From IMG/VR virus record IMGVR_UViG_3300029362_000002: DNA of 64,000 bases, one strand, 5' to 3'. Source of the stretch: a virus. Of the stretch, positions 39,799 through 62,153 are shown one piece after another. Both the position numbers and the translations under genes were made by a program. Under the pieces are notes generated by a model. It worked only from the letters and a program-made list of their open reading frames with translations, searched no databases and was not told the DNA's origin. How positions within the stretch are numbered: the stretch's first letter is position 1; each line of letters opens with the position of its first letter.

Positions 39799-40845
39799 AT
39801 GGCAAATTTTGATGATATGAAGCTGGCAGTCGAGGCACTGTCCGGAGGAAAGAACACAGTTTTACTGGATGATCGTGGGATGCCGTCCATCATGGTTGCG
39901 TTTCCAAAATTCAAAATCTCAGATGTAATTGCCGGAGGAAGTGAGAACATCCATCCGGCATTTTCCGTAGGTGGTGCGGAAAAAGATGTTGTGTATGTCT
40001 CCAAATTCCAGAACATTGTAATGAATGACAGAGCATATTCACTTCCGTTTAAGGACCCGAAGACCGGCGTGAACTTCGACCAGTCCGTCAACTACTGCAG
40101 AAACAAAGGAACTGGATGGGGCCTGATGCCGTATTCCTTATGGAGCGCTATCGCTCTGTGGTGTAGAAAGAACGGCACTATGCCAAGAGGTAACAATAAC
40201 TACGGCAGCGATCACGGATACCCACACGAGAAAGGAACACCGACTTACTACGATAGTAATAAGATCGCTCGTGTAGCAACCGGTTCTGGTCCTGATACAT
40301 GGAGCCACAACTGGATGCCGGACGGAATCTTCGATCTGAATGGAAATGTATGGGAGTGGTGCGCTGGCATGAGACTTGTTGATGGCGAAATCCAGATTAT
40401 TCCGTATGCGAACAGCATGATTTTGACAACCAGTATGGCGGCTGGCTCTACAGAATGGAAAGCAATCGCAGCTGACGGTTCGCTGGTGGCTCCTGGCACT
40501 GCTGGTACTTTGAAATGGGATGTTGTTTCTGGAAAGATTCAGCTTACCAAAGGAACTATCACGCCGAAAGACACAGGAAACTGGCTGCCATATAACAATA
40601 TGACACTTGGCGAAGGACTTACAGCAGCTCCGGAGTTGGCAAAAGCTCTCCTCCTGTATCCGGATGAGCCAAACGGAGATTACGGTGGAGATTACCATGG
40701 AGTAAATACTTCCGGAGAGCGTTTGCCGCGCTGCGGGGGCAGCTGGAACTACACTTCCCGTGCTGGCGTGTTCAACGTGCACCTGGTCAGCCCTCGGACT
40801 AGCGCCGACGGCTACCTCGGTTTCCGCTCCGCTTTTGTAAACTGA
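39799..40845 (+). CDS. DGR variable protein 1: fibre-tip receptor-binding candidate with an FGE-sulfatase/C-type-lectin-like fold
   Basis: The last 38 codons are VR1. GNVWEW and GFRS motifs typical of CLec-fold DGR targets. Follows the fibre genes. Confidence 0.85.
   Translation: MANFDDMKLAVEALSGGKNTVLLDDRGMPSIMVAFPKFKISDVIAGGSENIHPAFSVGGAEKDVVYVSKFQNIVMNDRAYSLPFKDPKTGVNFDQSVNYCRNKGTGWGLMPYSLWSAIALWCRKNGTMPRGNNNYGSDHGYPHEKGTPTYYDSNKIARVATGSGPDTWSHNWMPDGIFDLNGNVWEWCAGMRLVDGEIQIIPYANSMILTTSMAAGSTEWKAIAADGSLVAPGTAGTLKWDVVSGKIQLTKGTITPKDTGNWLPYNNMTLGEGLTAAPELAKALLLYPDEPNGDYGGDYHGVNTSGERLPRCGGSWNYTSRAGVFNVHLVSPRTSADGYLGFRSAFVN
40722..40835 (+). repeat. DGR variable region VR1
   Basis: A 114-nt match to TR 41371-41484. 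I counted 13 A-to-N differences plus one T-to-G at the 5' edge (40730). Confidence 0.9.
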
Positions 40846-40903: not shown

Positions 40904-41335
40904 GTGGCAGAACAGAGATCCGACAATATGACAGCAGAGATGGAAGAGGAAGGACTAACGATATTACAGAAAATTGAAGATATGGAAGTGTACGCCCTCC
41001 CTCTCATCGAAAGATGGTCCATTGCACACCAGAAATTATTAGGTGACGATATAGCTCATTGTATGAACAGAATGTCGCAGCTGGCGTCGGCATTAACGGT
41101 TGCATACTACAAGAAAACTTCCATCAGCGAACTGGATGAAATGAACAAAGCACTCCAGTCTCACATCAGAGTAGCCTATCGCCTGGGATATTTGAAAGGA
41201 AAATCTTCCAGGAGTGAATGGGAAGGCCGTTCTGCAGAGATCGGAAGAATGATTGGAAAATATAAAGAATGGGTATACGGCGATCAAAAATCGTCACAAC
41301 AGAATAAAAGTGCAAAATCAAGGTACAGCCGGTAA
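40904..41335 (+). CDS. avd: DGR accessory variability determinant (Avd-like four-helix-bundle protein)
   Basis: 143-aa helical basic protein between target and TR. The C-terminal AEIGRMIGKYKEWV resembles the bAvd C-terminus. GTG start 6 nt after AGGAG. Confidence 0.65.
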   Translation: MAEQRSDNMTAEMEEEGLTILQKIEDMEVYALPLIERWSIAHQKLLGDDIAHCMNRMSQLASALTVAYYKKTSISELDEMNKALQSHIRVAYRLGYLKGKSSRSEWEGRSAEIGRMIGKYKEWVYGDQKSSQQNKSAKSRYSR

Positions 41336-41370
41336 TGATCCGGTTGTGCCGCCGGGAATAGGCTATTTCG

Positions 41371-41484
41371 TTTGCCGATCTGCGGGGGCAACTGGAACAA
41401 CACTTCCAATGCTGGCGTGTTCAACGTGAACCTGAACAACCCTCGGACTAACGCCAACGGCAACATCGGTTTCCGCTCCGCTTT
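41371..41484 (+). repeat. DGR template region (TR)
   Basis: Adenine-rich copy of VR1 and VR2. Read in the VR frame it gives runs of AAC/AAT codons (NWNNTSN..NVNLNN..NANGNI). The 3' 18 nt contain no adenine and are identical to both VRs. Confidence 0.9.
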
Positions 41485-41711
41485 ACTCTCATATGCCAGA
41501 ACCGGTCAGTTCAAGGACTGCCGGCAGTGCGAGAGATTTAAAGGAGTCTATTTCCGCTCCGACCGTGTGGAAGGAGAAAAATGGTTCTACTCGTGCGTGG
41601 GTAGAGCCGTCCCTGTGGAGACACACAAAGCAGGAGACACCTATGGAGGCCGCAAGTAGCGAGAGTGAAAGCTGCCACACATAGTCAAATACAAAGGAGC
41701 GATAACGCAAC

Positions 41712-42932
41712 ATGAAGATTAAGAATGTTTTTGATCTTATCTTCTCCATGGAAAATCTGTATGGAGCCTTAGAAGATGCTTCAGATCAAAGGAGATATAA
41801 CAAGGATGTAATGCTCTTCAATTTCAACGCCTGGGATAATTTGAAAGAGATTAGAGATTCTGTTTACGATGGGACGTATACCATAGACAAATATTATATT
41901 TTCTATGTGTATGAACCGAAGAAAAGGATGATAATGTCCATCAAATTTAAACACAGAGTTGTTCAATGGGCGATATACAGAGTTATCAATCCTATGCTGA
42001 TTAAGGGATATATCAAGGATTCTTACGGATGTATCCCGGAAAGAGGACCACTGACCGCTATGTTTCGGCTTAAATACTGGTTGGAACAGGTGAACCGTAA
42101 GGATGAGCAGTGGTATTACTTAAAACTAGATATAAGCAAATATTTTTACCGGATATCGCATCGGATACTAAAGAAAATACTTGCAAAGAAAATTAAGGAC
42201 CAGCGGTTGCTGAAATTGCTGGAATCAATTATAGATTGCAAACATACACCGTTTGGATTGCCGCCAGGACGTTCACCAGGGGAAGTACCTTTGGAAGAAC
42301 GTCTTTTTGATGTCGGAATGCCTATCGGAAATCTGCTATCACAGGTGTTTGCGAATGTGTATTTGGACGCACTGGATCAGTTCTGCAAGAGGGAATTGCA
42401 AATTCATTGTTATGTCCGATACATGGATGATGTGATTATTCTCAGTAGTAGCAAGGCACAGCTCCAGGAATGGAAAGTCAGAATTGCTTCTTTTCTGGAA
42501 ACGGAGTTGGAACTGCAGCTAAACAATAAAACTTGTATCCGGCCAATAAATCAAGGCATTGAATTTGTCGGATACAGGGTATGGCCTGACAAAGTGGTAC
42601 TCAGGAAGAAAACAACACTTCACATCAAGAGAGTTTTGAAGGCAAAGAAAGAAGCGTACAGAGTGAAGGAAATTTCTTTTAAGCAGGCAACAGACACACT
42701 GCAGAGTTACTTGGGAATGATGAAATATTGTGACTGCGATGCATTGAAGGAGAAGATTCTGGATGATTTTGTCCTGACGCACGCAGACATGAAACAAATT
42801 TACGAGGAAGGAGGGGATCGGGATGAGAACTACTATCGCAGAGGTGATGGATGGTCAGTCGAAGATTATCCAGTTACAGACGAAACTTATAGACCGGCTG
42901 GCACTTGCATTACTGCAGCATGGAACTATTGA
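41712..42932 (+). CDS. DGR reverse transcriptase
   Basis: YVRYMDDVII (YxDD box), KLDISKYF, and the DGR-type PIGNLLSQ motif. Lies 227 nt downstream of TR. Confidence 0.9.
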   Translation: MKIKNVFDLIFSMENLYGALEDASDQRRYNKDVMLFNFNAWDNLKEIRDSVYDGTYTIDKYYIFYVYEPKKRMIMSIKFKHRVVQWAIYRVINPMLIKGYIKDSYGCIPERGPLTAMFRLKYWLEQVNRKDEQWYYLKLDISKYFYRISHRILKKILAKKIKDQRLLKLLESIIDCKHTPFGLPPGRSPGEVPLEERLFDVGMPIGNLLSQVFANVYLDALDQFCKRELQIHCYVRYMDDVIILSSSKAQLQEWKVRIASFLETELELQLNNKTCIRPINQGIEFVGYRVWPDKVVLRKKTTLHIKRVLKAKKEAYRVKEISFKQATDTLQSYLGMMKYCDCDALKEKILDDFVLTHADMKQIYEEGGDRDENYYRRGDGWSVEDYPVTDETYRPAGTCITAAWNY

Positions 42933-44294: not shown

Positions 44295-44447
44295 ATGGGG
44301 AATGTAGCAAAAATCGTAGTGGGGGTGCTTGCCATAGGCGGCACCTTTTTCATTCTGTTAATCAGAGAATTTGGGAAATTTATTGACGAAGTTTCACCCT
44401 ACAACTGGGGAGAAAGCGAGGTGCTGAAAGATGAGTATAAACGTTGA
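44295..44447 (+). CDS. Hypothetical 50-aa single-TM protein
   Basis: The ATG at 44295 follows AGAGGAG. Overlaps the lysin start. Confidence 0.35.
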   Translation: MGNVAKIVVGVLAIGGTFFILLIREFGKFIDEVSPYNWGESEVLKDEYKR

Positions 44448-46086
44448 GGCGGAGAAAAGAGCCTATAAGAAATTCAGACAGGCCGGCATGACTGCAGCTG
44501 GGGCTTGCGGCCTGATCGGAAACCTGGAAGCGGAGAGTGATGGTTTCTACACAAACCGGGTTGAATACCTGTGCCTTAAACGGCTGAAAGAAAAGGGAAA
44601 AGTCTATACCCATGCCACCTATACTGCAGCGATCGACAGCGGAAAGATCTCCTGCGAGGAGTTCTTACATCCGCTTTCCGGAAAACAGTACGGGTACGGA
44701 TTGGCCCAGTGGACAAGCCCTGGCAGAAAATCTGGTCTTTGGAATTTTGCCAAGCAGAGAGGCGTGTCCATTGCGGACGAAGATATGCAGCTGGATTTCT
44801 TACTGAAGGAACTGAGAGAAAGCTACAGCCCGGTTTTGGCTATTCTCAAATCAGCAACAACAATCCGGCAGGCATCCGATGTTGTTTTAAAGAAGTTTGA
44901 AATTCCGGCCAACACAGGGGAAAGCGTATGCGAAAGTAGAGCGGCAAGAGGCCAGAAATTCTATAACGATTATGCAAAGGAGGAAAAAATTGTGAGCGTG
45001 AAAATTAGTAATTGTGGACATGATGAAAATGGACGTTATGCAGGAGGCCAGGCGGGCGATCAGACTGGTACAGAGTATCAGATCATCAACTGGTACAACA
45101 GACCTTGGCTCTGTGTTTTACGATTTGAGGACCAGGAAGTAGCGGCACTGATTGCAGAGATGGCAACACAGGCCGCAAACAATAATATGATCGGCTATGA
45201 CCAGGGAACTGCAGGGAATAGTAATGATCGCTATACCTTCTGGGAGCAGCTGGCCGCAAATGGTTATGATCCATCAAAAATCAAAAAGCCATGCGAAACA
45301 GACTGCAGCCAGAGTACCGCAAGCATCGTGAAAGCAGTCGGATACCGTCTGAATAAGCCGAAGATGAAAGCAGTTAGCGTTTACTTGACTACATATAACA
45401 TGAGAAGCGCATTCAAGACAGCGGGAGCAAAGGTTCTCACCGATCAGAAATATCTGACAAGCGGTACATGCTTAAAGCCTGGAGATATCCTGCTGAATGA
45501 CAATCATCATGTGGCTATCGCAGTGAGTGGAGATGCCAGTTCCAATGCAACTCCGGCAAAGAAGAATTATTTGGAAAAGGGAGATACCGGATCAGAAGTA
45601 ACCGCGATGCAGAAAATGCTTATCAAAGTTGGATATTCTTGCGGAGCCGCAGGAGCTGACGGAGATTTCGGCTCTGACACTGATTCAGCTCTTCGCAAAT
45701 TTCAGAAAGACAATGGGCTGACGGTTGATGGACAGTATGGAACTAATTCCAAAGCCAAGCTGACCGCTCTGTACAACAAAAAGGTTGGAACCACCACATC
45801 CAACAAGAAAGACGTAACGACAGTAGCCAAAGAGGTGATTGCCGGTAAATGGGGTAGCGGAGATGAGCGGAAAAAGAAGCTGACTGCGGCCGGCTATAAT
45901 TATGACACTGTTCAGAAGAAGGTGAATGAGCTGCTGAAGACAAGAACAAAGAAATCCGTAGCTGAAGTTGCAAAGGAAGTCGTTTCCGGAAAATGGGGGA
46001 ACGGAGCCGATCGGAAGAAAAAACTGGAAGCAGCCGGTTACAATTATGCCGAAGTCCAGAAAGAAGTAAACAAGCTACTGAAATAA
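44431..46086 (+). CDS. Multidomain endolysin (lysozyme-like N-domain, second hydrolase-like domain, PG_binding_1-like domain, two CW_7 repeats)
   Basis: N-terminal CGLIGNLEAESDGF pattern. Central GHDENGRYAGGQAGDQTGTEY. GDTGSEVTAMQKML...DGDFG PG-binding motif. Two copies of VAKEVIxGKWGxGxxRKKKLxAAGYNYxxVQKxVNxLL. Confidence 0.8.
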   Translation: MSINVEAEKRAYKKFRQAGMTAAGACGLIGNLEAESDGFYTNRVEYLCLKRLKEKGKVYTHATYTAAIDSGKISCEEFLHPLSGKQYGYGLAQWTSPGRKSGLWNFAKQRGVSIADEDMQLDFLLKELRESYSPVLAILKSATTIRQASDVVLKKFEIPANTGESVCESRAARGQKFYNDYAKEEKIVSVKISNCGHDENGRYAGGQAGDQTGTEYQIINWYNRPWLCVLRFEDQEVAALIAEMATQAANNNMIGYDQGTAGNSNDRYTFWEQLAANGYDPSKIKKPCETDCSQSTASIVKAVGYRLNKPKMKAVSVYLTTYNMRSAFKTAGAKVLTDQKYLTSGTCLKPGDILLNDNHHVAIAVSGDASSNATPAKKNYLEKGDTGSEVTAMQKMLIKVGYSCGAAGADGDFGSDTDSALRKFQKDNGLTVDGQYGTNSKAKLTALYNKKVGTTTSNKKDVTTVAKEVIAGKWGSGDERKKKLTAAGYNYDTVQKKVNELLKTRTKKSVAEVAKEVVSGKWGNGADRKKKLEAAGYNYAEVQKEVNKLLK

Positions 46087-46146: not shown

Positions 46147-46177
46147 GCCCTGGTCCTTCGGGACTGGGGCATTTTTT
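46147..46177 (+). terminator. Rho-independent terminator after the endolysin
   Basis: GCCCTGGTCC-TTCG-GGACTGGGGC followed by ATTTTTT. Confidence 0.7.
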
Positions 46178-46974: not shown

Positions 46975-47003
46975 TTGACAAATACGCAAGTGCGAGTTAT
47001 AAT
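46975..47003 (+). promoter_or_regulatory. Early promoter P1 (TTGACA-17-TATAAT) with a CGCAAGTGCGAG 12-mer in the spacer
   Basis: Consensus -35 and -10 elements. Lies inside a 61-bp perfect repeat (46961-47021 = 52976-53036). Confidence 0.7.
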
Positions 47004-52989: not shown

Positions 52990-53018
52990 TTGACAAATAC
53001 GCAAGTGCGAGTTATAAT
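52990..53018 (+). promoter_or_regulatory. Early promoter P2 (identical copy of P1)
   Basis: TTGACA-17-TATAAT with CGCAAGTGCGAG in the spacer; lies within the 61-bp repeat 52976-53036. Confidence 0.7.
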
Positions 53019-53247: not shown

Positions 53248-53308
53248 TTTTTTTACCTACATAGCTCGCAAATACGAGACAGAATCGCACTTGCAGAAAG
53301 GAGTACGA

Positions 53309-53494
53309 ATGAGCCATCAGAGAAAGACAAAGGATCGGTGGGACATAATGACAAACTGAGGATATGGCTGGGAGTGTGAGAACAGCGAATACACCAGTGC
53401 AGATGCAAAGAGAAGCCTCAGAGAGTACCGAGAGAATCTTGCAGGAAGAGCAGAGGTGAGAATGGAAAAGCACAGAGAGCCGATCACAGCATAA
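53309..53494 (+). pseudogene. Small ORF interrupted by an in-frame TGA at codon 17 (nonsense mutation or read-through)
   Basis: AAAGGAG RBS, then MSHQRKTKDRWDIMTN-TGA-GYGWECENSEYTSADAKRSLREYRENLAGRAEVRMEKHREPITA, all in one frame. Confidence 0.5.
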
Positions 53495-53512
53495 TTTTAG
53501 GAGGAATATAGC

Positions 53513-53842
53513 ATGGCATTATTAGAGGTTAAGACAAGTTACGCAACATATACAGATTGCACATTAAGAGTAGGACAGTATCAGATGGATGGCAGTATTG
53601 CAGTTGAAATCTTCAGTAGAAGAGAGGGGCCAGTTGCAAGGATTACCGTTTGTCTGTGCGATTCAGCATTAGCAGAAAATGAAGCGTATGTGGATACAAA
53701 TAATTGCCCTTGGGTAGTGGATTTCTTGGAGGCGAAAGGGCTGGCAAAATCGACTGGAAGAACGAGACGTAGCGGATATTGTATTTATCCATCAATGAAA
53801 TTCAACAGAGAGAAAATGGCAGAGTTTGAGGGAGGGTACTGA
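53513..53842 (+). CDS. DUF4313-like protein
   Basis: Sequence pattern recalled from DUF4313 proteins of mobile elements; TAGGAGG RBS. Confidence 0.45.
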   Translation: MALLEVKTSYATYTDCTLRVGQYQMDGSIAVEIFSRREGPVARITVCLCDSALAENEAYVDTNNCPWVVDFLEAKGLAKSTGRTRRSGYCIYPSMKFNREKMAEFEGGY

Positions 53843-53843
53843 A

Positions 53844-54755
53844 ATGGAAAGATTATATTGCACAATCAACGAAGAACAGGCCAGAATCGCACACGATATG
53901 ATGTCTATGAGCGACTACAAGGTAGGCAGTAAGACAGAAGAATACAGAGGATATGTCGATAAAGCCTATGACTTGGCCGAGAAAGTTGCAGAAGCAAGGC
54001 CGAGGGAAACGGATAGAGTTGAAGCATTGGCAAAGAGATATTCAAAGAGAATGGCCGAGTACATGAACCGGGAGAGCAATATCGGTTGCAGATGTCCTTC
54101 GGTTATGATTTCGGGTGCTGGCAATTTTCCAGTGAAGAAAAAAGAGAAACAAGTGCAGGCTTGGGAGAAGAACCATCAGTTTTATACTGAGACGCAGAAA
54201 ATCCTGGATAAGATCAAGGGGATTTTGAGAGGAAAGGATATCATCAAGTCCTCAGATGAGGACGCTATAGAACGTCTGGAAGAGAAGCTGGATGCTTTAA
54301 AAGAAAACCAGGAAAGAATGAGAGCTGTCAATAAAGCCATCCGCTTGAAGAATACCAAAAAGGGAGATGAGGAGCTTAAAATCCTGGGGTATTCCGATGA
54401 GCAGATCCAGGAACTGAGAACTCCGGATTTCATGGGAAGAGTTGGATTTCCAGCATACGCCCTGCAGAACAACAACGCAAATATCCATAGAGTAGAGGAA
54501 AGGGTGAAAAGCTTGAAAGCAGTCAAGGAAAAGGGAACAAAAGAAACGGAATTTGAGCTGTTTAAGGTTGTTGAGAATGTGGAAGCTATGAGGTTACAGA
54601 TTATTTTTGATGAAAAGCCGGAGGCAGATGTTAGAGCCGTTTTGAAAAAGAACGGTTTTAAATGGGCACCATCCCAGGGGGCATGGCAGAGAATGTTGAA
54701 TCCGGCCGGCAAATACGCATTGAACCGAGTGAAAGAAGAACTGGAGGCTGTATAA
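53844..54755 (+). CDS. DUF3560-like protein
   Basis: C-terminal FDEKPEADVRAVLKKNGFKWAPSQGAWQR pattern. The ATG at 53844 follows GAGGGAGGG. Confidence 0.5.
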   Translation: MERLYCTINEEQARIAHDMMSMSDYKVGSKTEEYRGYVDKAYDLAEKVAEARPRETDRVEALAKRYSKRMAEYMNRESNIGCRCPSVMISGAGNFPVKKKEKQVQAWEKNHQFYTETQKILDKIKGILRGKDIIKSSDEDAIERLEEKLDALKENQERMRAVNKAIRLKNTKKGDEELKILGYSDEQIQELRTPDFMGRVGFPAYALQNNNANIHRVEERVKSLKAVKEKGTKETEFELFKVVENVEAMRLQIIFDEKPEADVRAVLKKNGFKWAPSQGAWQRMLNPAGKYALNRVKEELEAV

Positions 54756-55006
54756 TGCCAGAACTTCTCACAGCAGAAATAGCCAATGAATACAGAATAT
54801 TGGCAGAAAATCTTCCGGAAAATGGTAGGCAAGATACAGGCGAGAGAAGAGAACTGCGGCAGGAACTTCAAAGGAGATGCGGACTATCGGAACTGCAGGC
54901 AATTAACATTTTGAATGGGTTTCATGTCAAAGACTACATAGCAATAAAAGAAAGGGAGTATGCAGAGAATGAGCGAAGAAAAGCAGAAAGAGATCAAGAC
55001 ACTTAA
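54755..55006 (+). CDS. Hypothetical protein
   Basis: The ATG overlaps the upstream TAA. Confidence 0.4.
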   Translation: MPELLTAEIANEYRILAENLPENGRQDTGERRELRQELQRRCGLSELQAINILNGFHVKDYIAIKEREYAENERRKAERDQDT

Positions 55007-55289
55007 AGGATGGGAAGAAAGCGGGAAAAACTGGGATGATTTTTGCAAGCCTGGAGAGCTGGTGGACGAAGATATCTACTGGTACTTCTTGAATATTTTG
55101 CCACCGAGAAATATGGGAGCAGGATATCTGCAGGTAGGAGAACCTTACGACAGTAGATTAAACCCGAAGACAGGAAAATATATGGCAACCTATTCTACAT
55201 TCGTGAAAGTAGGGGATAAGGTATGGAAATATTGCGGAAATTGTTTCCCAGGAGAAAGCGTTGATATTGAAAGCGAGGACAAGAGATGA
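54960..55289 (+). CDS. Hypothetical protein (start uncertain)
   Basis: Co-oriented; overlaps its neighbours. Confidence 0.4.
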   Translation: MQRMSEEKQKEIKTLKGWEESGKNWDDFCKPGELVDEDIYWYFLNILPPRNMGAGYLQVGEPYDSRLNPKTGKYMATYSTFVKVGDKVWKYCGNCFPGESVDIESEDKR

Positions 55290-55537
55290 TTGTTGGTTAT
55301 TGCATCCTTAATGGAAAAAAGTGGGTCATGTTCGAGGACAAACAGTGTGCAGCTGGAGAAGTAAAGTTGACCGATGGATTCAAGGATAAGCTGATCCGTT
55401 GGAACAGCGATAAGCTGATCGGAATGGAAAGCATCAGCAAGGAAGAGATTGATCTGAGAAAAGTCGTGAAGCGCATGAGAGGAGCTAGGCCTTGGCATCC
55501 TCTTCTGCAGGCTTTGAGAAAGGAGCTGGAAGGATGA
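55286..55537 (+). CDS. Hypothetical protein
   Basis: 4-nt overlaps. Confidence 0.4.
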   Translation: MIVGYCILNGKKWVMFEDKQCAAGEVKLTDGFKDKLIRWNSDKLIGMESISKEEIDLRKVVKRMRGARPWHPLLQALRKELEG

Positions 55538-56208
55538 ACGAAATTAAGATCACGCCGGAAGAAATCGGAAAGGCCGCAGAGCTTATCCGAAAAGTAGCAG
55601 AGGGAACAACGCAACCTGCAGAGCCGCTTACCAGTTGGGAAATCGCAAAAATTTTCCAGAGTACGCACACGAGAATTTTCAATCGGATTTCTCGGTTTTA
55701 CAATGCAGAAGCGTCCGAAGACGAAAAGAAGGAGTTCGAGATTGCGTACAGACCGTATAGAAACCAGAGAAAACATCCAATCTGGAAACTGAGTGAAAAA
55801 GGCTGCCAGCTTTACATTGAAAAGATATGTGCCGAGGAAAAACGTAGTAAGGCTTTCGTGGAAGGACTTGGGAAATTTAATGATTTAATCGCACAGCATT
55901 TCCATGGAGTAAAAACGCAGGAAAATATCCTGATGAAGGGAAGATCCAGAACAGAGTGCAGTTACATAAAGAATCTGTTCGACCAGTTTATCGAAGGCCC
56001 GGCAATCGAGAATAGAGAAATCGAAGAGCTTGGGGCAAAATACGAAGAGTTTTATAAGGCAATGGGCGGGCTGAATGATGATGTAGCAGCCAAAAGAAAA
56101 GTAGAGGACTCGGTAATGGGAGTTGCAATCGAGGCAGAAATGCAGGGATTTATCTATGGATTCAAAGTATTTGAGATACTTTTGAATAGAGAATTAGCCA
56201 CAGCATAG
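55534..56208 (+). CDS. Rha-like phage regulatory protein
   Basis: TSWEIAKIFQSTHTRIFNRISRF resembles the Rha N-terminal HTH. The ATG at 55534 follows AAAGGAGCTGGAAGG. Confidence 0.45.
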   Translation: MNEIKITPEEIGKAAELIRKVAEGTTQPAEPLTSWEIAKIFQSTHTRIFNRISRFYNAEASEDEKKEFEIAYRPYRNQRKHPIWKLSEKGCQLYIEKICAEEKRSKAFVEGLGKFNDLIAQHFHGVKTQENILMKGRSRTECSYIKNLFDQFIEGPAIENREIEELGAKYEEFYKAMGGLNDDVAAKRKVEDSVMGVAIEAEMQGFIYGFKVFEILLNRELATA

Positions 56209-56220
56209 GAGGAAAAGAAC

Positions 56221-57363
56221 ATGGCAAAAGCAAAGTTTATGAATGGTGAGTTTTCAGCAAAGTTTAAAGGAAAGAGAAGATTCGTTGCAGAGCAGATGGA
56301 AGCAATTAAGGATTATGCGGCAAGAGATGATATGCAGATCAATATTTGTCCGGTAATCCAGGAGAGACCTTCTGGAAAAAAGAATACTGAGGAGCAGATC
56401 ACACCAACCCATTTCATCAGCGGAAACCTGGAACACGCAGTAGTGGCAATTTACGACAATGCCGGCATCCCGTCATTCATGCACAGATTCCGCAAGGTGA
56501 CAAATAAGGAGCTGTTCGGTGGAAGCGATAAAACAAATGCAGCGTTTATCATTGGAGATGAAGAATACGATGAAATTTACATTTCTGTCTATGAGAACTG
56601 CGAAATTAACGGAAAGCCTTATAGCCTGCCAATGCAGAAGCCATGGACAGGAATTACCAATGATGAGGCGGCGAGAGCTTGTTTTTCAAAGGGAGAGGGA
56701 TGGCATCTTATGACAAGAGCTGAATGGGGATTACTTGCGAACCTCAGCTTGAAAAATGGTACTTTGCCACATGGCAACACGAACTATGGAAAGTACCATG
56801 CAAACCCGGAAGAACATGGAGAGTCAGCAGGAGAATCCGGAAAGACCAAAACCGGATCAGGACCGGCAACATGGACCCACGATCATACATTGGAAGGCGT
56901 TCACGATCTGTCCGGAAACGTATGGGAAATGGTAAGAGGCCTGAGAATAAAAGACGGACAGCTGGAGATGGTAAAGAATAACGATGCAGCATTGGATATT
57001 GATCTTACCCTTGAAGGAGATAACTGGGAACCGGTAAGAGATGATTCCGGAAAGTCTATTAGAGTAAGCGTTTCCGATGGCGGTATCAAATTCCTTGCTG
57101 AAAGTGATCACGAAGAGGGATACGATGGATGTAGATGGGAAGATGTTAATATTGATTGCGAGAGCGAAACACTGAAAGAGCTGGCTCTGTATCCTGGAGA
57201 GCCGGAAGCCTACTGCTATATTGATAGCACTGAGGGAGAATATTTGCCGATCTGCGGGGGCAGCTGGTACAGCGCTTCCAGTGCTGGCGTGTTCCGCGTG
57301 CACCTGAGCAACCCTCGGACTAACGCCCGCTGGCTACCTCGGTTTCCGCTCCGCTTATTTTAG
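56221..57363 (+). CDS. DGR variable protein 2 (remote target, full-length paralogue of target 1; C-terminus frameshifted by a 1-nt insertion in VR2)
   Basis: Homologous to 39799..40845 over most of its length (GIPSFM.., GWHLMTRAEW, GNVWEMV). The 3' end matches TR. Ends ...NARWLPRFPLRLF instead of a ..GYLGFRSA..-type end. Confidence 0.8.
   Translation: MAKAKFMNGEFSAKFKGKRRFVAEQMEAIKDYAARDDMQINICPVIQERPSGKKNTEEQITPTHFISGNLEHAVVAIYDNAGIPSFMHRFRKVTNKELFGGSDKTNAAFIIGDEEYDEIYISVYENCEINGKPYSLPMQKPWTGITNDEAARACFSKGEGWHLMTRAEWGLLANLSLKNGTLPHGNTNYGKYHANPEEHGESAGESGKTKTGSGPATWTHDHTLEGVHDLSGNVWEMVRGLRIKDGQLEMVKNNDAALDIDLTLEGDNWEPVRDDSGKSIRVSVSDGGIKFLAESDHEEGYDGCRWEDVNIDCESETLKELALYPGEPEAYCYIDSTEGEYLPICGGSWYSASSAGVFRVHLSNPRTNARWLPRFPLRLF
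57243..57357 (+). repeat. DGR variable region VR2
   Basis: Matches TR 41371-41483. I counted 13 A-to-N differences plus one extra T at 57331. Confidence 0.85.
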
Positions 57364-57389
57364 AAAACTGAAAACTGAGTAACTGATAT

Positions 57390-57407
57390 GGCGGCTGGAA
57401 AGCCGCC
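57390..57407 (+). promoter_or_regulatory. GC hairpin downstream of VR2
   Basis: GGCGGC-TGGAAA-GCCGCC lies 33 nt after the end of VR2 and follows AAACTGA AAACTGA G TAACTGA repeats. Confidence 0.6.
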
Positions 57408-57436
57408 GTTCATATATGAGAATGAGGAGAAAAGCC

Positions 57437-58792
57437 ATGGAAGAAAGAAGAGATATAGTTTATATCGGAATAGATCACATCCATACGCACCCGGAGAATC
57501 CAAGAAAGGATCTCGGAGATTTGACGGAGCTGGCAGAATCGATGAAAAAACAGGGGTGTTTACAGAATTTAACGGTTGTTCCGGTAGAAGAACAGCCTGG
57601 AGAGTATTATGCGTTGATTGGGAACCGCCGGCATGGAGCATCAAAGTTAGCAGGCCTGGAAGAATTGCCATGCAGGATCGCTGAAGGATTAAGCCGAAAA
57701 GAACAGTTGTCAATCATGCTGGAAGAAAATATGCAGCGCAGCGATTTGACAATTTATGAGCAGGCCCAGGGATTTCAGCTTATGCTTGATTTGGGAGATA
57801 CCGAGGAACAAATTGCTGAGAAAACTGGATTCAGCAAGACTACCATTCGCCGTAGGTTAAATATTGCGAAGCTAAACCAGGATGAACTTAAAAAGAAGGA
57901 GCAGGATGAAAATTTTCAGTTAACGCTGAAGGATTTATACGAACTGGAAAAAGTGAAAGATATTAAGACGAGGGATAAAATTCTCAGAGAAGCAACCAGT
58001 TCAAGAGACTTGGTGAGCAGAGCGCAAGCAGCTGCAGCAGAAGCTAAACGAAATGAAAATGCAAAAAAACTGAAAGAGATGTTGAAGAAGAAAGGCATTA
58101 AGGCTGCCCCGAAGTCAGCAGAAAATGAAATTTGGAGCGGAAAATGGAATACTATTAAGGAGTATGAGTTAGACAAAGACGTTCCGGAGCAGATCAAACT
58201 TCCAAAGACAGAAGAAGAAAAATTTTTCTTAGTATATTATCGTAGCTTGAGAATTATTACAAAAATTCCAAAAGGAAAGAAAGAACTTTCACCTTGGGAA
58301 AAAGAGCAAAAGGAAAAGGATCAGGCAAAAAGGAAAATCAAAGCGATATTAAAAGAAAGCAGTGCCAGAAGAAAAGAATTTCTGGAGAATATTATTTCGG
58401 GGAAAATCAGCCCGGTTAAAGATGAATCTGAAGTAAAAGAAAAGATATGGGAAGCTATGATGGCACTTGGCAGTTACATTTATGCAAGCACAGTGCGAGA
58501 TTTCTATTTGAAAAAGAGCTACTATGAATCTTCACCAGAAGAGAAAAAAGCAGCAGATGAGTCAGCGGGAAAACTTAGTTCCTTACATCAGATGATGATT
58601 ATTTTGCACAATTCAATGAAAATTTGCAACGAACCGTATGATTACAACTTGGTCTTTAATAAAAACAAAGGAGACGCACTCTTGAAAGGATATGAGGTGT
58701 TTGAGCCGTATGGTTGGTATTTTGAAGATGAAAAGGAACGTCAGGTGCTGGATGGAACATCTGAACTGTACAGAAAGGAGAAGAAAGAGTGA
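57437..58792 (+). CDS. ParB/Noc-like N-terminal-domain DNA-binding protein (second ParB-like gene)
   Basis: IDHIHTHPENPRK ... LIGNRRHGASKLAG motifs. The ATG at 57437 lies 7 nt after GAGGAG. Confidence 0.65.
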   Translation: MEERRDIVYIGIDHIHTHPENPRKDLGDLTELAESMKKQGCLQNLTVVPVEEQPGEYYALIGNRRHGASKLAGLEELPCRIAEGLSRKEQLSIMLEENMQRSDLTIYEQAQGFQLMLDLGDTEEQIAEKTGFSKTTIRRRLNIAKLNQDELKKKEQDENFQLTLKDLYELEKVKDIKTRDKILREATSSRDLVSRAQAAAAEAKRNENAKKLKEMLKKKGIKAAPKSAENEIWSGKWNTIKEYELDKDVPEQIKLPKTEEEKFFLVYYRSLRIITKIPKGKKELSPWEKEQKEKDQAKRKIKAILKESSARRKEFLENIISGKISPVKDESEVKEKIWEAMMALGSYIYASTVRDFYLKKSYYESSPEEKKAADESAGKLSSLHQMMIILHNSMKICNEPYDYNLVFNKNKGDALLKGYEVFEPYGWYFEDEKERQVLDGTSELYRKEKKE

Positions 58793-59271
58793 GCAGAAGA
58801 CCAGAGATAACAGCTACGTTGTCTCTGGCACTTGAAAAGAAAATCAATCCGTACAATGATCCACGGATATACTGGGCTAAGGAAGTGACATTTGATTACT
58901 CCACAAACCATGCAGTCAGAGTTGATTATATGAGATATAAGCCGGTTAATAATACTGTGTCCGGAATAGAAAAAGGAGACTTTTACTGTTATGAAGTGAA
59001 ATCATCTGTAGAGGATTTTCGCTCGGGGCATGGCTTGAATTTCCTCGGAGATTATAATTACCTGGTAATGCCGGAGAAGATTTACGCAACGATTTCATTG
59101 GAGGTCCCACACTACGTTGGTGTATATGTTTTGGATGGAACAGAATTAACCTGCATAAAGAAAGCCAAGAGACATGATCGGAGCAGACCAGTATCAGAAA
59201 TGCTGCTTATGATGTTTAGATCAGCAGCAAGAGACAGGAGGCGGATATGCAGTGAAATTACGCAGGAATAA
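58789..59271 (+). CDS. MmcB-like PD-(D/E)XK-fold protein
   Basis: FYCYEVKSSVEDFRSGHGLNFLGDYNYLVMP pattern recalled from the MmcB family. Confidence 0.45.
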   Translation: MSRRPEITATLSLALEKKINPYNDPRIYWAKEVTFDYSTNHAVRVDYMRYKPVNNTVSGIEKGDFYCYEVKSSVEDFRSGHGLNFLGDYNYLVMPEKIYATISLEVPHYVGVYVLDGTELTCIKKAKRHDRSRPVSEMLLMMFRSAARDRRRICSEITQE

Positions 59272-59278
59272 TGAATAT

Positions 59279-59692
59279 ATGTTTCAAGTTGTAGAGTGCA
59301 ATACTTATATGAAAAGAATTAAGGACGGAAAATATATCCGGCACTCTGAACAATACTCCGATGTTTATTACTATGTTGACGAAAATGCTGAAGAAAAGGA
59401 AAGAAAAGTAGAACCGGAAGAATGGGGCGGTAGCGATTTCGTAAAAACATATTACGAGGCAGTGGAGAAGAGATTTGTAGGCGTTGTCATAGGTATGAAG
59501 CTTATTACGCTGAAAGCAGAATTGTTTTGTGATAGTGCTTGCAGGCCAGATGGAGTAGAAGTTGATTTTGTAAACCGAAATGATATAGAGCAGAAAAAGG
59601 TTGCCATTGTAGCATATGGGTGCAATAAAACAAGGCTTGTTCCGTTGGAACAGTTAAAGATCATAAGGAAAGTAGAGGAAGGCGAGACATGA
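59279..59692 (+). CDS. Hypothetical protein (start uncertain)
   Basis: In-frame ATG just past the upstream stop. Confidence 0.4.
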   Translation: MFQVVECNTYMKRIKDGKYIRHSEQYSDVYYYVDENAEEKERKVEPEEWGGSDFVKTYYEAVEKRFVGVVIGMKLITLKAELFCDSACRPDGVEVDFVNRNDIEQKKVAIVAYGCNKTRLVPLEQLKIIRKVEEGET

Positions 59693-59928
59693 AAACAGGT
59701 AAATATACGAAAGATGGAAGAGAGATGCAGGTGGGCGATGTTGTACACTTCAGATGCAAAAATCATCCGCTGAGCGGAAAAGGTGTAGTATTCATGGGAA
59801 AGGAAGTAGATGGCTTAGGAGAAGATCCGTTCCGCATCAGAGATACAAGAACCGGAAGAAATAATGGACGGATATACCCTTATTACGATGATGCAGTATA
59901 TCGAATTGACGGAAGAGAGGGTGAGTAG
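59689..59928 (+). CDS. Hypothetical protein
   Basis: 4-nt overlap. Confidence 0.45.
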   Translation: MKTGKYTKDGREMQVGDVVHFRCKNHPLSGKGVVFMGKEVDGLGEDPFRIRDTRTGRNNGRIYPYYDDAVYRIDGREGE

Positions 59929-59930
59929 TC

Positions 59931-60173
59931 ATGGCAAAGCAGATGGTTTTGAACCGAAAGATGTACAAGGAAATTAAGAAAATGGACCACCAGGATATGT
60001 CCAACTACTTGTCGCGGTATTACATGAACGCATATAACCAGGGCAAGGAAGACTCCGAAGGATTGAAGGCAGATGAGCTAAGAGAAATCCTTTTGACAGT
60101 AAAGGGAATCGGACCAGCAAAGGCAGAGAACATTATGGAAGCAGTTGGAAAAGCCCTTGCAGAAAAGGGGTGA
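59931..60173 (+). CDS. Hypothetical protein
   Basis: Tight packing. Confidence 0.45.
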   Translation: MAKQMVLNRKMYKEIKKMDHQDMSNYLSRYYMNAYNQGKEDSEGLKADELREILLTVKGIGPAKAENIMEAVGKALAEKG

Positions 60174-60397
60174 GGGAGATGTGGCAGCGAGGAGTCGAAT
60201 GCGATGGCAAGTGCTATACTGATGAAGGAATATGTCCGAGAGCTGAGTGGTGCGATAAAACCAGGAAAGGTGAGTTTGCGGCAACAGCGCTGGCCGGATT
60301 TTTCTTTTTGGTGGTGCTGGTAATGTTTGTACCAGGAATGATCGCATTAAAATTGCTGGACTGGGTATATGGAAAATTATATTGGAGGGAGAGTTGA
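60170..60397 (+). CDS. Hypothetical membrane protein
   Basis: 4-nt overlap; one TM helix (FFFLVVLVMFVPGMIAL). Confidence 0.45.
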   Translation: MREMWQRGVECDGKCYTDEGICPRAEWCDKTRKGEFAATALAGFFFLVVLVMFVPGMIALKLLDWVYGKLYWRES

Positions 60398-60680: not shown

Positions 60681-60944
60681 AATAGGAAACAGGTAGGCAA
60701 CAAAAATGGCGATATGTATTGATTTTGCAGGCATTACTGTTTAGATCGAGGAAGCTGCAGACGCAGGAAAGTTCTAATCAAACCTTTTTAATCAAAGAGT
60801 CAACAAACCTAGAAAGTACCGTAGTTCCAAGGGCTGCGGTACTTTTCTTAGTTTAGATCAAAAAAATGAGAAAGTAATTTGAGACACGGTGAGAAGCCTT
60901 GAAAATGGCAAGATAGGCAACAGGTAGGCAACAAGTAGGCAACA
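60681..60944. promoter_or_regulatory. attP-like region with arm-type repeat clusters
   Basis: TAGGCAACA-containing 11-mers occur at 60692-60702 (with a degenerate copy at 60682-60691) and as three tandem copies at 60912-60944. GTTTAGATC direct repeats at 60739-60747 and 60851-60859. Central hairpin at 60813-60845. Confidence 0.5.
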
Positions 60945-60988: not shown

Positions 60989-61011
60989 GCCGCAACCACA
61001 AGGGTTACGGC
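60989..61011 (-). terminator. Terminator hairpin overlapping the integrase stop codon
   Basis: GCCGCAACC-ACAAG-GGTTACGGC (one mismatch). On the minus strand it is followed by CTTTTCTTTTCC. Confidence 0.55.
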
Positions 61012-62153
61012 ATTTTTTCTATCTCGGCTCTGAGCCATTCAATATCACGGATTGTATAGACCGCCTCGGTTACGTCTGTGATCTTGTGACCGGCAAGACG
61101 TTTCACAACGTACTCATCTACGCCCGCCTTTTTCGCCATCGTAATGAATGTTGTTCGGGGATCATGCGGCCGATGTTCGGAACGAAGGTGCAGTGCGGCA
61201 ACGACCTTGTTAAAGCGCCCAGCGTATTTGTCATAGGTTATTCTCATACCGCCCTTGGCAGCCTCCGGATCATTAAAGAGGCGGTCACTTCCAAGAGAAA
61301 CTGCTTCGTCATAATTTCTTTTTACCAGGTCCCGAATACGAGTGTGGATCGGGACGGTACGGTGCTTGCCAGCCTCGGTCTTCATACCGCCGGTAATACA
61401 CCACTTTTCCAAGTCAACGTCTTTTAATTCCAAGAGCCCCATTTCTTGGGGACGCCATCCCATATAACACTGTATAAGCAACCAGTCGGCGAATTTAATG
61501 TTGCCAACAGTATTCCAAAGGGCTTCCATCTCAGAATCATTGAAGTTAATATGGCCACGCTTTGCATCTTCCTTTTCTTTGATGATGTCATTTGAAAGCT
61601 CAAAGGTACGAGCATAGTTTTTCGAGACAAGATCATATTCCATGGCATAGTCCAGCATTAGGTTGAACATGGATTTTATTCTGGATTTCGTTCCCGGAGA
61701 TGCAGGCACTTTAGCCCCGGCGTCCTTGCCCCGGTTTTGAATTACATATCCGTCTTCCATGATTCCTTTTATGTGTCGAGCACGCAGATCCTTTACACGC
61801 ATCCCCTGTATGGCGTGGCAATATCTCCAGGCAGCAATGATTGTCCTGGAAGAAGAATCACTTTCGAGGGTAGGAAAGTAAGCTGCCGTCCATCTTTCGT
61901 AAAGCTCGGCCAAGGTCATGTTATCGTTCTGAATGTCGTAGGGATTAGCTCCGTACTCAGCTAAAGCCTGCAGAGCATCTTTTTTAGTCTTAAAGGTTCC
62001 GATAGGAACTCTGTTCTGTACTGCTTTTCCGGTTTCTTCATTTATGACCCAGCCGAGGGTTACTCTGGCCAGATATGGCTTACGCCGGTTTCCGGATAAT
62101 TTAGTTACGCTTCCATAACCGTTCGGTAATTTCAATAGATCATCTCCTGTCAC
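61005..62153 (-). CDS. int: Tyrosine recombinase (phage integrase)
   Basis: C-terminal catalytic pattern: R..., HRPHDPRTTF, LAGH, VYTIRD. N-terminal SAM-like domain. 382 aa. Confidence 0.85.
   Translation of the reverse strand: MTGDDLLKLPNGYGSVTKLSGNRRKPYLARVTLGWVINEETGKAVQNRVPIGTFKTKKDALQALAEYGANPYDIQNDNMTLAELYERWTAAYFPTLESDSSSRTIIAAWRYCHAIQGMRVKDLRARHIKGIMEDGYVIQNRGKDAGAKVPASPGTKSRIKSMFNLMLDYAMEYDLVSKNYARTFELSNDIIKEKEDAKRGHINFNDSEMEALWNTVGNIKFADWLLIQCYMGWRPQEMGLLELKDVDLEKWCITGGMKTEAGKHRTVPIHTRIRDLVKRNYDEAVSLGSDRLFNDPEAAKGGMRITYDKYAGRFNKVVAALHLRSEHRPHDPRTTFITMAKKAGVDEYVVKRLAGHKITDVTEAVYTIRDIEWLRAEIEKMP

What the first reader, a model, noticed from the sequence alone, without database searches (positions are those of the whole stretch)
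56221..57407. Second, remote DGR target inside an early accessory block about 15 kb from the RT
CDS 56221..57363 is homologous to the fibre-tip target over most of its length. Shared blocks include GIPSFM/GMPSIM, GWHLMTRAEW/GWGLMPYSLW and GNVWEMV/GNVWEW. It has a ~50-aa extra N-terminal extension.

Its 3' end (57243-57357) is a second VR matching the same TR. I counted 13 differences, all at TR adenines. It has its own downstream GC hairpin.

Unlike target 1, it is not in the tail module. It sits between a Rha-like regulator and a ParB-like gene, downstream of promoter P2, which looks like an immunity-controlled early promoter.

Inference: it could be a spare receptor-binding cassette expressed outside the late operon. 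More speculatively, it could be a diversified non-structural binding protein acting early in infection. Multi-target DGRs are known, but a phage DGR target placed in an early, non-structural context would be unusual.
Basis: partly seen in the sequence, partly recalled or inferred. Interest (0 to 1): 0.8.

Follow-up and report, generated by a model that had tools for sequence, protein, structure and literature searches.

The report
Second, distant DGR target gene
A gut temperate phage uses one mutagenic reverse-transcriptase system to rewrite two binding proteins, and the second gene sits far from the tail genes in an early-type operon; this layout is real and active in nature but has already been reported for other gut phages.

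Summary
CDS 56221..57363 is a paralogue of the cassette-adjacent target (35% identity, E 1e-59). Its 3' end (57243-57357) matches the TR (41369-41485) with 13 substitutions, all at TR adenines. Three AACTG heptads and a GC hairpin (57390-57407) follow it.

It shifts the frame and removes the invariant C-terminal GFRSA. Intact alleles are 386 aa.

VR2 is diversified in nature. Its 90% cluster holds 6730 sequences (7557 for target 1), and independent contigs differ from the TR almost only at adenines.

The window is a circular phage genome of about 64.3 kb. The gene lies after the late-operon terminator, in an accessory block driven by two perfect sigma-70 promoters that resemble the cro-side promoter.

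Target 2 is not a recent copy. It belongs to an old lineage with its own N-terminal module. In 79 of 80 related loci no TR lay within about 5 kb. In every examined context (Lagaffe, Saumur, Dulem virus 37, two further prophages) it sits among early or accessory genes.

Distal second VRs in gut prophages are already published (2018, 2024, 2025), so this is a new member of a known kind. The function is unresolved.

The parts
56221..57363 (+). Target 2 (T2) CDS as it stands: a 380-aa, frameshifted allele of a 386-aa DGR variable protein
   Evidence: ORF. Paralogue of T1. PF03781. Intact 386-aa alleles P0001 etc.. Fold matches TaqVP.
56221..56439 (+). T2-lineage N-terminal module (aa 1-35: beta-hairpin plus helix) and variable charged linker (about aa 36-73). 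Absent from T1.
   Evidence: AF2 secondary structure E2-7, E12-17, H19-33, with low pLDDT at 35-51. The same pattern occurs in all 83 T2-lineage homologues examined. No similarity to any other window ORF.
57243..57357 (+). VR2, variable repeat of the DGR
   Evidence: 13 of 13 substitutions against the TR fall at adenines. Independent contigs differ from the TR at adenines only or almost only.
57331..57331 (+). Extra T relative to TR and VR1: a +1 frameshift that replaces GYLGFRSAYFRKLKTE with WLPRFPLRLF
   Evidence: It is not in a homopolymer. The same allele occurs on 10 contigs from JGI, ENA and Logan assemblies. G374/F375 are nearly invariant and R376/S377/A378 invariant in 84 homologues.
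57364..57382 (+). Remainder of the ancestral reading frame, up to TAA 57380-57382
   Evidence: Translation with T57331 removed gives 386 aa, identical in length and C-terminus to P0001/P0002.
57366..57385 (+). Three AACTG heptad repeats between the VR end and the hairpin. Inferred to be part of the target-recognition (IMH-like) region.
   Evidence: The same 3-4 heptads follow VR1 here and the VRs of Dulem virus 37, Saumur and Lagaffe. Downstream of the TR there is only a single GACTG and no heptad array.
57390..57407 (+). GC hairpin, 7-bp stem and GGAA loop, downstream of VR2
   Evidence: Relative to the VR1 hairpin (GCCGCCT/AGGCGGC), most stem pairs are swapped G-C for C-G, so the structure is kept by compensatory changes.
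41369..41485 (+). TR, the template repeat shared by VR1 and VR2
   Evidence: An identical TR is present in L009.
40904..41335 (+). Avd accessory protein
   Evidence: PF22296 bAvd, E 3.4e-9 (37.6 bits, just below the 40-bit gathering score).
41712..42932 (+). DGR reverse transcriptase
   Evidence: PF00078, E 1.3e-20. The IGNLLSQ motif is visible in the translation.
39799..40845 (+). Target 1 (T1), cassette-adjacent, at the end of the baseplate module. VR1 is 40720-40836 and its hairpin 40862-40879.
   Evidence: It is preceded by Baseplate_J and Mu Gp48-like genes.
46147..46170 (+). Intrinsic terminator after the endolysin gene: end of the late operon
   Evidence: 10-bp stem with 7 GC pairs and a T-run. 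Endolysin is 44431..46086.
46975..47003 (+). Promoter P2a (TTGACA-17-TATAAT) at the head of the accessory block
   Evidence: 12/12 match. Part of the 103-nt repeat 46926-47028 / 52941-53043. An operator-like palindrome lies in the spacer.
52990..53018 (+). Promoter P2b, a duplicate of P2a, 3.2 kb upstream of T2. No predicted + strand terminator lies in between.
55534..56208 (+). Upstream neighbour: 224-aa weakly Rha-like protein, 12 nt from the T2 start
   Evidence: below the gathering score. Gene call in related contigs.
57437..58792 (+). Downstream neighbour: ParB-like protein (ParB_N + HTH_ParB)
60775..60846 (.). Prophage junction (attP core near 60777) and the terminator that closes the block (60812-60846)
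   Evidence: Homology of L001, L002, L004, L009 and L010 to the window stops at 60775-60778. Host genes follow in L001. Terminator.

Best explanation
Window 56221..57382 encodes the second, non-adjacent variable protein (T2) of the phage's single DGR.

Diversification mechanism. Avd (40904..41335), the TR (41369-41485) and the RT (41712..42932) make adenine-mutagenised cDNA. That cDNA replaces VR2 (57243-57357) in trans, about 15.8 kb away. VR2 carries its own copy of the cis signals also found after VR1: a TR-identical GC-rich 3' end, three AACTG heptads and a GC hairpin with a 4-nt loop.

Status of this copy. In this clone the last homing product, or a later mutation, left an extra T. The resulting frameshift removes the invariant C-terminal GFRSA strand. 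This allele is probably non-functional, and the next homing event could overwrite it.

What T2 is. T2 is not a recent copy of the baseplate-linked target T1. It belongs to an old paralogue lineage of TaqVP-like single-domain CLec proteins. This lineage has its own N-terminal beta-beta-alpha module and a flexible linker. In the examined phages it is encoded away from the cassette, among early or accessory genes.

Expression. In this genome it is read from an operon behind the late terminator. The promoters are near-copies of the cro-side promoter and carry the same operator-like palindrome.

Most likely role. It is a soluble hypervariable ligand-binding protein made from the repressor-controlled early/accessory programme, and it does not dock like T1.

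Shown: DGR membership, trans arrangement, natural diversification, the frameshift, lineage separation, genomic context. Inferred: timing of expression, repressor control, a non-T1-like role.
For: Diversification:
- 13 of 13 TR-VR2 substitutions are at adenines, P about 5e-9.
- VR2 of six independent contigs differs from the TR at A in 15/15, 11/11, 12/12, 14/14, 15/16 and 16/17 positions.
- Cluster sizes at 90% identity are 6730 (T2) and 7557 (T1). In each, 15 of 15 sampled members have distinct VR peptides. T2 columns with three or more residues are confined to the VR.
- Hairpins and heptads follow every VR, with compensatory stem changes.

Frameshift:
-.

Fold:
- TaqVP 5vf4, E 6e-25, TM 0.70; Mtd only E about 0.05.

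Lineage:
- The T1 proteins of four phages form one group in 195 of 200 bootstrap replicates. The extension-bearing T2 proteins separate in 200 of 200.
- T1 proteins share the N-terminal motif MANFD..LAV. T2 proteins share a different module.

Context:
- 79 of 80 T2-lineage loci have no TR within about 5 kb. The exception, L040, has a TR 2.9 kb downstream with no RT detected.
- 12 of 14 loci with full 10-kb flanks have neither TR nor RT.
- T2 lies among replication, recombination or accessory genes in Lagaffe, Saumur, Dulem virus 37, L016, L017 and L081.

Transcription signals:
- Terminator at 46147; perfect promoters at 46975 and 52990.
- The palindrome TCGCAAATGCGA gives 17 hits against 5.9 expected. 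The hits cluster at both promoters, at the CI/cro region and at 9.3-9.6 kb.
- The P2 spacer AATACGCAAGTGCGAGT resembles the cro-side promoter spacer AATACGCAGATTCGTAC at 63506-63534.

Other:
- No transmembrane segment or signal peptide.
- VR1 and VR2 of one genome are not correlated.
Against: - No expression or proteomic data exist for this phage or for any relative I could find.
- Every phage DGR target with a demonstrated function is a receptor-binding protein.
- T2 keeps the whole T1-like body, and structural relatives in BFVD are often labelled tail fibre, although those labels are automatic.
- Gene position does not exclude virion incorporation.
- The operator assignment rests on motif enrichment only.
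- The block's other genes mostly have no annotation, so it cannot be called a counter-defence island.
- The allele in the window is frameshifted, so this very copy may do nothing.
Confidence: 0.55

Rival explanations
1. T2 is a second virion-borne adhesin, either an alternative receptor-binding tip or a decoration protein tethered through its N-terminal module and linker. Where the gene lies has no bearing on function. The phage simply carries two independently diversified binding specificities.
For: - CLec fold and full-length homology to T1 and to TaqVP.
- Both VRs are diversified equally and independently.
- The layout of small anchor, flexible linker and binding domain suits a tethered surface protein.
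- All characterised phage DGR targets are adhesins (PMC8144416).
- Gulyaeva et al. propose a doubling of host-range exploration for Lagaffe (PMC11792537).
- From my own knowledge: the P22 tailspike gene 9 also lies apart from the late cluster, next to the ant region.
Against: - T2 lacks the N-terminal motif conserved in the T1 proteins of four phages.
- In the examined contexts it is encoded among early or accessory genes.
- Here it lies behind a strong late-operon terminator, under promoters that resemble the early cro-side promoter.
Confidence: 0.3
2. T2 is an intracellular conflict protein: a diversified binder that neutralises or senses variable host defence proteins or competing phages. 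It is expressed early alongside other accessory or counter-defence genes.
For: - Early or accessory context in several unrelated phage backbones. It is next to DNA methyltransferase genes in L081 and Dulem virus 37, and next to ParB-like or PAPS-reductase genes elsewhere.
- It is a soluble protein without export signals.
- The Nature 2025 paper notes second VRs near counter-defence genes (PMC12629997).
- Cellular DGRs diversify putative cytoplasmic antigen sensors (abstract of PMC10907252).
Against: - There is no effector or sensor domain besides the CLec body.
- There is no conserved partner gene across phages.
- Nothing in the window's block is recognisably anti-defence.
- No experimental precedent exists for a phage-encoded cytoplasmic DGR target.
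Confidence: 0.25
3. In this genome T2 is a decaying relic. The frameshift marks a pseudogene, and the TR match is historical rather than the result of ongoing homing.
For: - The extra T at 57331 destroys invariant C-terminal residues.
- The identical VR2 allele is seen in several samples.
Against: - The same samples also carry one fixed VR1 allele, so they represent one clone and not a frozen VR2.
- All cis elements, the TR, Avd and the RT are intact.
- Close relatives (94-97% identity) carry in-frame, mutually different VR2s.
- Apart from the single inserted T, there are no other disabling mutations in 1.1 kb.
Confidence: 0.07

Closest known systems
Second, RT-distal variable regions in gut prophage DGRs (Nature 2025, PMC12629997; Faecalibacterium phages Lagaffe, Lelie and CP11, Microbiol Spectr 2024, PMC11792537; non-adjacent targets within prophages, Wu et al. 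NAR 2018, PMC5758913)
   Same: One RT/Avd/TR cassette sits next to a tail-module target, and a second VR lies kilobases away in the same phage among non-structural genes. Both VRs vary at adenines across populations. Lagaffe gp40 is a homologue of T2 (41% identity).
   Different: - This phage is a different backbone (about 64.3 kb, RecT/exonuclease/DnaD-type early region).
- T2 lies between the lysis genes and attP rather than inside the replication operon.
- This allele is frameshifted.
- In the passages I read, those papers did not report the T1/T2 lineage split, the T2-specific N-terminal module or the heptad-plus-hairpin signal.
TaqVP, variable protein of the Thermus aquaticus prophage DGR (PDB 5vf4, PMC6328139)
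   Same: The fold is similar over the full length (TM 0.70, 28% identity over 364 columns). It is the FGE-type CLec fold with a C-terminal VR, and the size is similar (381 aa).
   Different: TaqVP is the cassette-adjacent, single target of its DGR. T2 is non-adjacent and adds an N-terminal module of about 35 aa plus a linker.
Mtd of Bordetella phage BPP-1
   Same: It is a DGR-diversified CLec protein of a temperate phage. Its VR lies at the 3' end and is followed by an IMH and a hairpin. The homing machinery can act in trans, as stated for the Bordetella DGR in PMC5758913.
   Different: [quoted passage not shown] The T2 model matches Mtd only weakly (E about 0.05, TM 0.26-0.28).
Treponema denticola and Legionella multi-target DGRs
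   Same: One TR serves several VRs at a distance.
   Different: Those are cellular DGRs, with lipoprotein or surface targets spread over a chromosome. Here both targets travel with one phage genome.

Membership tests
DGR variable-protein gene (target with VR) | A VR/TR pair whose differences are confined to TR adenines | tested here: met
   13 of 13 substitutions are at A, P about 5e-9. There is one additional 1-nt insertion.
DGR variable-protein gene (target with VR) | A cognate RT of the DGR type, an accessory protein and a TR on the same replicon | tested here: met
   RVT_1 E 1.3e-20. bAvd E 3.4e-9, just below Pfam's gathering score. The IGNLLSQ motif is in the RT translation. The TR lies between Avd and the RT. 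The genome is one circular replicon.
DGR variable-protein gene (target with VR) | VR at the C-terminus of a CLec-fold domain | tested here: met
   PF03781. AF2 model with pTM 0.78 matches TaqVP 5vf4 at TM 0.70.
DGR variable-protein gene (target with VR) | Target-recognition signals 3' of the VR (GC-rich IMH-like end plus hairpin) | tested here: met
   Hairpin at 57390-57407, z -3.6. The heptads and hairpin are conserved with VR1 and with the VRs of three other phages, and the stems differ by compensatory changes. Function in homing was not tested.
DGR variable-protein gene (target with VR) | Evidence of actual diversification | tested here: met
DGR variable-protein gene (target with VR) | Open reading frame intact through the VR | tested here: not met
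   The +1 T at 57331 shifts the last 17 codons. This applies to this allele only; the relatives are intact.
Mtd-type trimeric tail-fibre tip | N-terminal beta-prism and beta-sandwich trimerisation domains | tested here: not met
   Foldseek against Mtd gives E 0.05-0.7 and TM 0.26-0.29. The best match is monomeric TaqVP (PMC6328139).
Mtd-type trimeric tail-fibre tip | Gene located in the tail module next to the cassette | tested here: not met
   The gene starts 13.3 kb past the RT stop, behind the lysis genes and a terminator.
Mtd-type trimeric tail-fibre tip | Presence on the virion and a role in receptor binding | not testable with these tools
   No proteomic or adsorption data were found.
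T1 lineage (cassette-adjacent target of these Firmicutes myophages) | N-terminal motif MANFD..LAV and grouping with the T1 proteins in a tree | tested here: not met
   The motif is absent. The split of T1 from the rest has 195/200 support.
Distal second VR near counter-defence genes (PMC12629997) | A second VR distal from the RT in the same prophage | tested here: met
Distal second VR near counter-defence genes (PMC12629997) | [quoted passage not shown] | tested here: inconclusive
   The window block has ParB-like, MmcB-like, DUF4313 and DUF3560 genes but no methyltransferase. A methyltransferase gene lies about 1 kb from T2 in Dulem virus 37 and L081.

The most novel reading that the evidence does not exclude
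The T2 lineage is a phage-encoded, non-virion 'antibody'. It would be a soluble CLec binder that is expressed early under repressor control, diversified by the same DGR that retargets the tail. The phage would use it inside the cell against variable host defence proteins or rival phages. This would extend DGR function in viruses beyond adsorption.
Probability: 0.25. Interest if true: 0.85.

Novelty: new member of a known kind. Interest (0 to 1): 0.42.

Why it matters
Phage DGRs are usually explained as devices for switching receptors. Here a second target is equally diversified and has been kept for a long time as a separate lineage. It has its own N-terminal module and, in the phages examined, sits among early or accessory genes. 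This suggests that many gut temperate phages use hypermutation for a second task that has not been identified.

This genome gives a compact test case. It has one TR and two VRs with matching cis signals, a clear late terminator, duplicated early-type promoters, and a natural frameshift allele that could report on repair by homing.

The existence of distal second VRs is already published. The value here lies in sharpening the question rather than opening it.

Tried and rejected
- Nucleotide search of 54-60 kb against GenBank phages found no match.
- I looked for similarity between the T2 N-terminal 80 aa and any other window ORF, as a possible docking partner or donor. Nothing scored below E about 0.2.
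- I considered that the block at 47-60.6 kb might be a separate element or satellite. I rejected this because homology of five prophage contigs ends at 60775-60778, beyond the block. One viral contig also runs from the block through int/CI into window 1-3086, which shows one circular genome. The operator-like motif is shared with the switch region.
- I considered a Mu-like transposable phage, because contig flanks differ and BalMu-1 and Lagaffe were hits. I rejected this because the window has a tyrosine integrase, a defined junction and a lambdoid RecT/exonuclease/DnaD early region.
- I tested whether VR1 and VR2 of one genome carry related sequences, as expected for a receptor-masking partner or a shared cDNA. 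No consistent excess of identical substitutions appeared in 7 genomes.
- L081 looked like a counter-example, with T2 only 3.5 kb from T1. It is a deleted prophage in which T2 is still flanked by a dUTPase gene and a methyltransferase-sheath fusion.
- Rfam found nothing in 39-64 kb.
- Pfam on 20 block ORFs gave almost no annotation.
- Literature searches for Saumur and for virion proteomics of Lagaffe gave nothing usable.
Full report
**1. The observation**

The window carries one DGR cassette:
- Target 1 (T1) is 39799..40845, with VR1 at 40720-40836.
- Avd is 40904..41335, the TR is 41369-41485, and the RT is 41712..42932.

The only other TR-like sequence in 64 kb is 57243-57357, at the end of ORF 56221..57363. 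Base-by-base alignment gives 13 substitutions, all at TR adenines. With 26 A among 113 aligned TR positions, the chance of that is about 5e-9.

Both proteins hit PF03781 weakly. The body starts at residue 75 in this ORF and at residue 20 in T1, so the N-terminal extension is about 55 aa. A 7-bp GC hairpin with a GGAA loop lies at 57390-57407.

**2.

VR2 has one extra base, a T at 57331, relative to both the TR and VR1.
- The ORF as it stands ends ...NARWLPRFPLRLF*.
- Without the T it reads ...NARGYLGFRSAYFRKLKTE* and stops at 57380-57382.
- That corrected protein is 386 aa, exactly the length and C-terminus of the closest database relatives (P0001, P0002).

The lost residues are conserved across 84 homologues: G374 and F375 are nearly invariant, and R376, S377 and A378 are invariant. 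In the model they form a confidently predicted terminal strand.

The T is not in a homopolymer. The same 380-aa protein is encoded on 10 contigs from three assembly sources, so it is a real allele.

Those samples come from one study series. They also share one exact T1 allele. They therefore represent one clone, and they are not evidence that VR2 alone is frozen.

**3. Is VR2 used?**

Three lines of evidence say yes.
- The 90%-identity cluster that contains this protein has 6730 member sequences. The T1 cluster has 7557.
- Among 15 sampled members of each cluster, all VR peptides differ. In T2, every column with three or more residues lies inside the VR.
- At nucleotide level, the VR2 of six independent contigs differs from the TR at adenines in 15/15, 11/11, 12/12, 14/14, 15/16 and 16/17 positions.

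It has been applied, and it fails to refute.

**4. Cis signals**

After the TR-identical GC-rich end (..GGTTTCCGCTCCGCTT), both VRs continue with three copies of an AACTG-type heptad and then the hairpin. Downstream of the TR there is only a single GACTG and no heptad array.

Between VR1 and VR2, most stem pairs are swapped G-C for C-G (GCCGCCT versus GGCGGCT). The two VRs of phage Saumur also have different stems with the same shape. The same layout of heptads followed by a hairpin with a 4-nt loop occurs in Dulem virus 37 and Saumur. Lagaffe VR1 has heptads and a hairpin with a longer loop.

This fits the hairpin-dependent target recognition described for the Bordetella DGR (my own knowledge of Guo et al. 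2011). Function in homing here is inferred.

**5. Where the gene sits**

The window is a nearly complete circular genome.
- One viral contig runs from window 54742 to 64000 and, 287 nt later, into window 1-3086.
- Five prophage contigs lose homology at 60775-60778, and host genes follow in one of them. attP is therefore near 60777.

The gene order is as follows:
- integrase (minus strand, 61005..62153);
- CI-like repressor (minus strand);
- cro side;
- RecT, exonuclease, DnaD-like protein, helicase loader and RusA (1-5 kb);
- packaging, head and tail genes;
- T1 and the DGR cassette;
- holin-like genes and endolysin (to 46086);
- a 13.5-kb block of about 35 small + strand genes (47113-60640), then attP.

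A strong terminator follows the endolysin gene (46147-46170). The block contains two perfect TTGACA-17-TATAAT promoters, at 46975 and 52990, inside a 103-nt direct repeat. T2 lies 3.2 kb after the second promoter, with no predicted + strand terminator in between.

The promoter spacers carry a palindrome. TCGCAAATGCGA with up to 2 mismatches gives 17 hits against 5.9 expected, and no shuffle reached 17. The hits cluster at both promoters, at 62993-63675 in the CI/cro region, and at 9.3-9.6 kb.

By direct reading, the cro-side promoter (TTTACA-17-TATAAT, 63506-63534) has a spacer that begins with the same AATACGCA as the block promoters.

The block is mosaic among relatives. L009 lacks window 47810-55004 and L010 lacks 47622-51896, yet both keep T2.

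**6. T2 is an old lineage, not a spare copy**

The non-adjacent paralogue recurs in other phages.
- Dulem virus 37: between the lysis genes and the integrase.
- FP_Lagaffe gp40: at the head of the early operon, before the exonuclease, Gam, ERF and SSB genes.
- Clostridium phage Saumur: between a PAPS reductase gene and the replication initiator. Its VR2 has 15 of 17 substitutions at A.

Two further homologues lie among SbcCD-like, DnaC-like, SSB, RecU, ParB_N and PAPS-reductase genes.

Pairwise identities and a bootstrapped NJ tree give the same picture:
- The four T1 proteins group together (195/200).
- The extension-bearing T2 proteins group apart (200/200).
- Lagaffe and Saumur T2 lack the extension and branch in between.

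T1 proteins share the N-terminal motif MANFD..LAV. All 83 T2-lineage homologues examined instead have an extension of 53-113 aa (55-80 aa in most) with a beta-beta-alpha pattern followed by a charged linker.

In 80 T2-lineage loci from IMG/VR:
- 79 had no TR within about 5 kb of the gene. The exception, L040, has a TR 2.9 kb downstream with no RT detected.
- Where a cassette was in range, it had its own adjacent VR1.
- 12 of 14 loci with full 10-kb flanks had neither RT nor TR.

The apparent exception L081 is a deleted prophage in which T2 is still flanked by early genes.

**7. Fold**

I modelled the intact allele P0001 with 84 homologues. Mean pLDDT is 74.5 and pTM is 0.78, with low confidence only in the linker, one loop and the VR.
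- The best PDB match is TaqVP, a monomeric prophage DGR variable protein (E 6e-25, TM 0.70).
- Mtd matches only marginally (PMC6328139).
- There is no hydrophobic segment.

**8. Role**

The shown facts fit two readings.

The first is a second virion adhesin, tethered by its own anchor and linker.

The second is a soluble binder of the early programme that acts inside the cell.

I lean to "not docked like T1, made from the early/accessory operon". The reasons are the lineage-specific N-terminus, the consistent gene context in several unrelated backbones, and the transcription signals here. The choice between a virion and a non-virion role cannot be made with these tools.

VR1 and VR2 of one genome are not correlated. 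This argues against a partner that must mirror T1's specificity.

**9. What is known**

- Wu et al. 2018 list many prophage DGRs with one adjacent and one non-adjacent target (PMC5758913).
- Gulyaeva et al. 2024 describe second VRs in Lagaffe, Lelie and CP11, with population variation at both VRs of Lagaffe and CP11, and call their function intriguing (PMC11792537).
- A 2025 Nature paper reports four gut prophage species with a second VR distal from the RT, near counter-defence genes (PMC12629997).

This finding is thus a new member of a known kind. In the passages of those papers I read, I did not see the frameshift allele, the T1/T2 lineage split, the T2 N-terminal module, the heptad-plus-hairpin signal or the duplicated cro-like promoters.

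Noticed in passing
window 57331: A single inserted T inside VR2, next to mutated adenine positions, frameshifts the last 17 codons. The same allele appears in several assemblies. It could be an indel made during mutagenic homing, and it would be erased by the next homing event.
   Followed up: yes
window 46926-47028 and 52941-53043: A 103-nt direct repeat (84% identity) carries two perfect sigma-70 promoters with identical core sequence. This duplicates the promoter inside the accessory block.
   Followed up: partly
window 9331-9576, 46934-47079, 52949-53277, 62993-63675: The palindrome TCGCAAATGCGA with up to 2 mismatches is enriched (17 hits against 5.9 expected). It clusters at the block promoters, at the CI/cro switch and at 9.3-9.6 kb ahead of the packaging genes. 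It is likely a repressor operator.
   Followed up: partly
window 60671-60703 and 60902-60934; junction near 60777: 33-nt direct repeats (AAAAT..ATAGG.AACAGGTAGGCAACAA) flank the point where prophage contigs lose homology. They are probably integrase arm-type sites around attP. Convergent terminators lie at 60812-60846 (+) and 61011-60989 (-).
   Followed up: partly
window 1-64000 with L007: The window is about 64.0 kb of a circular phage genome of about 64.3 kb. In a related viral contig, only 287 nt separate window position 64000 from position 1.
   Followed up: yes
window 40840-40858 and 57366-57385; L013, L014, L015: Three or four AACTG-type heptad repeats lie between each VR end and its hairpin in this group of phages. 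In T2 they overlap the last codons (RKLKTE), so the conserved C-terminal tail may reflect a DNA-level constraint.
   Followed up: partly
window 40729-40730 versus TR 41378-41379: VR1 has AT changed to CG, which includes one non-adenine change (T to G). The same dinucleotide change occurs in the VR2 of L010 and L011. It may mark the 5' limit of homing or an older TR state.
   Followed up: no
L014 (FP_Lagaffe) 31798-33060: In Lagaffe gp40 the VR (32602-32706) is internal. About 118 further codons follow it, and no hairpin was found downstream, unlike all the other VRs examined.
   Followed up: no
L040 14063-14173: A TR-like repeat rich in AAC codons lies 2.9 kb downstream of a T2-lineage gene. 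The VR differs from it mainly at adenines. No RT was detected in the remaining 4.6 kb of the contig.
   Followed up: partly
L081 4072-5598: One ORF combines a DNA methyltransferase N-terminal part with a tail-sheath fragment. This points to a large deletion in a decaying prophage that nevertheless keeps T2, T1, Avd, the TR and the RT.
   Followed up: partly
window 53247-53513: A 266-nt stretch without an ORF lies downstream of promoter P2b and a 60-aa ORF, and it contains one operator-like site. There is no Rfam match.
   Followed up: no
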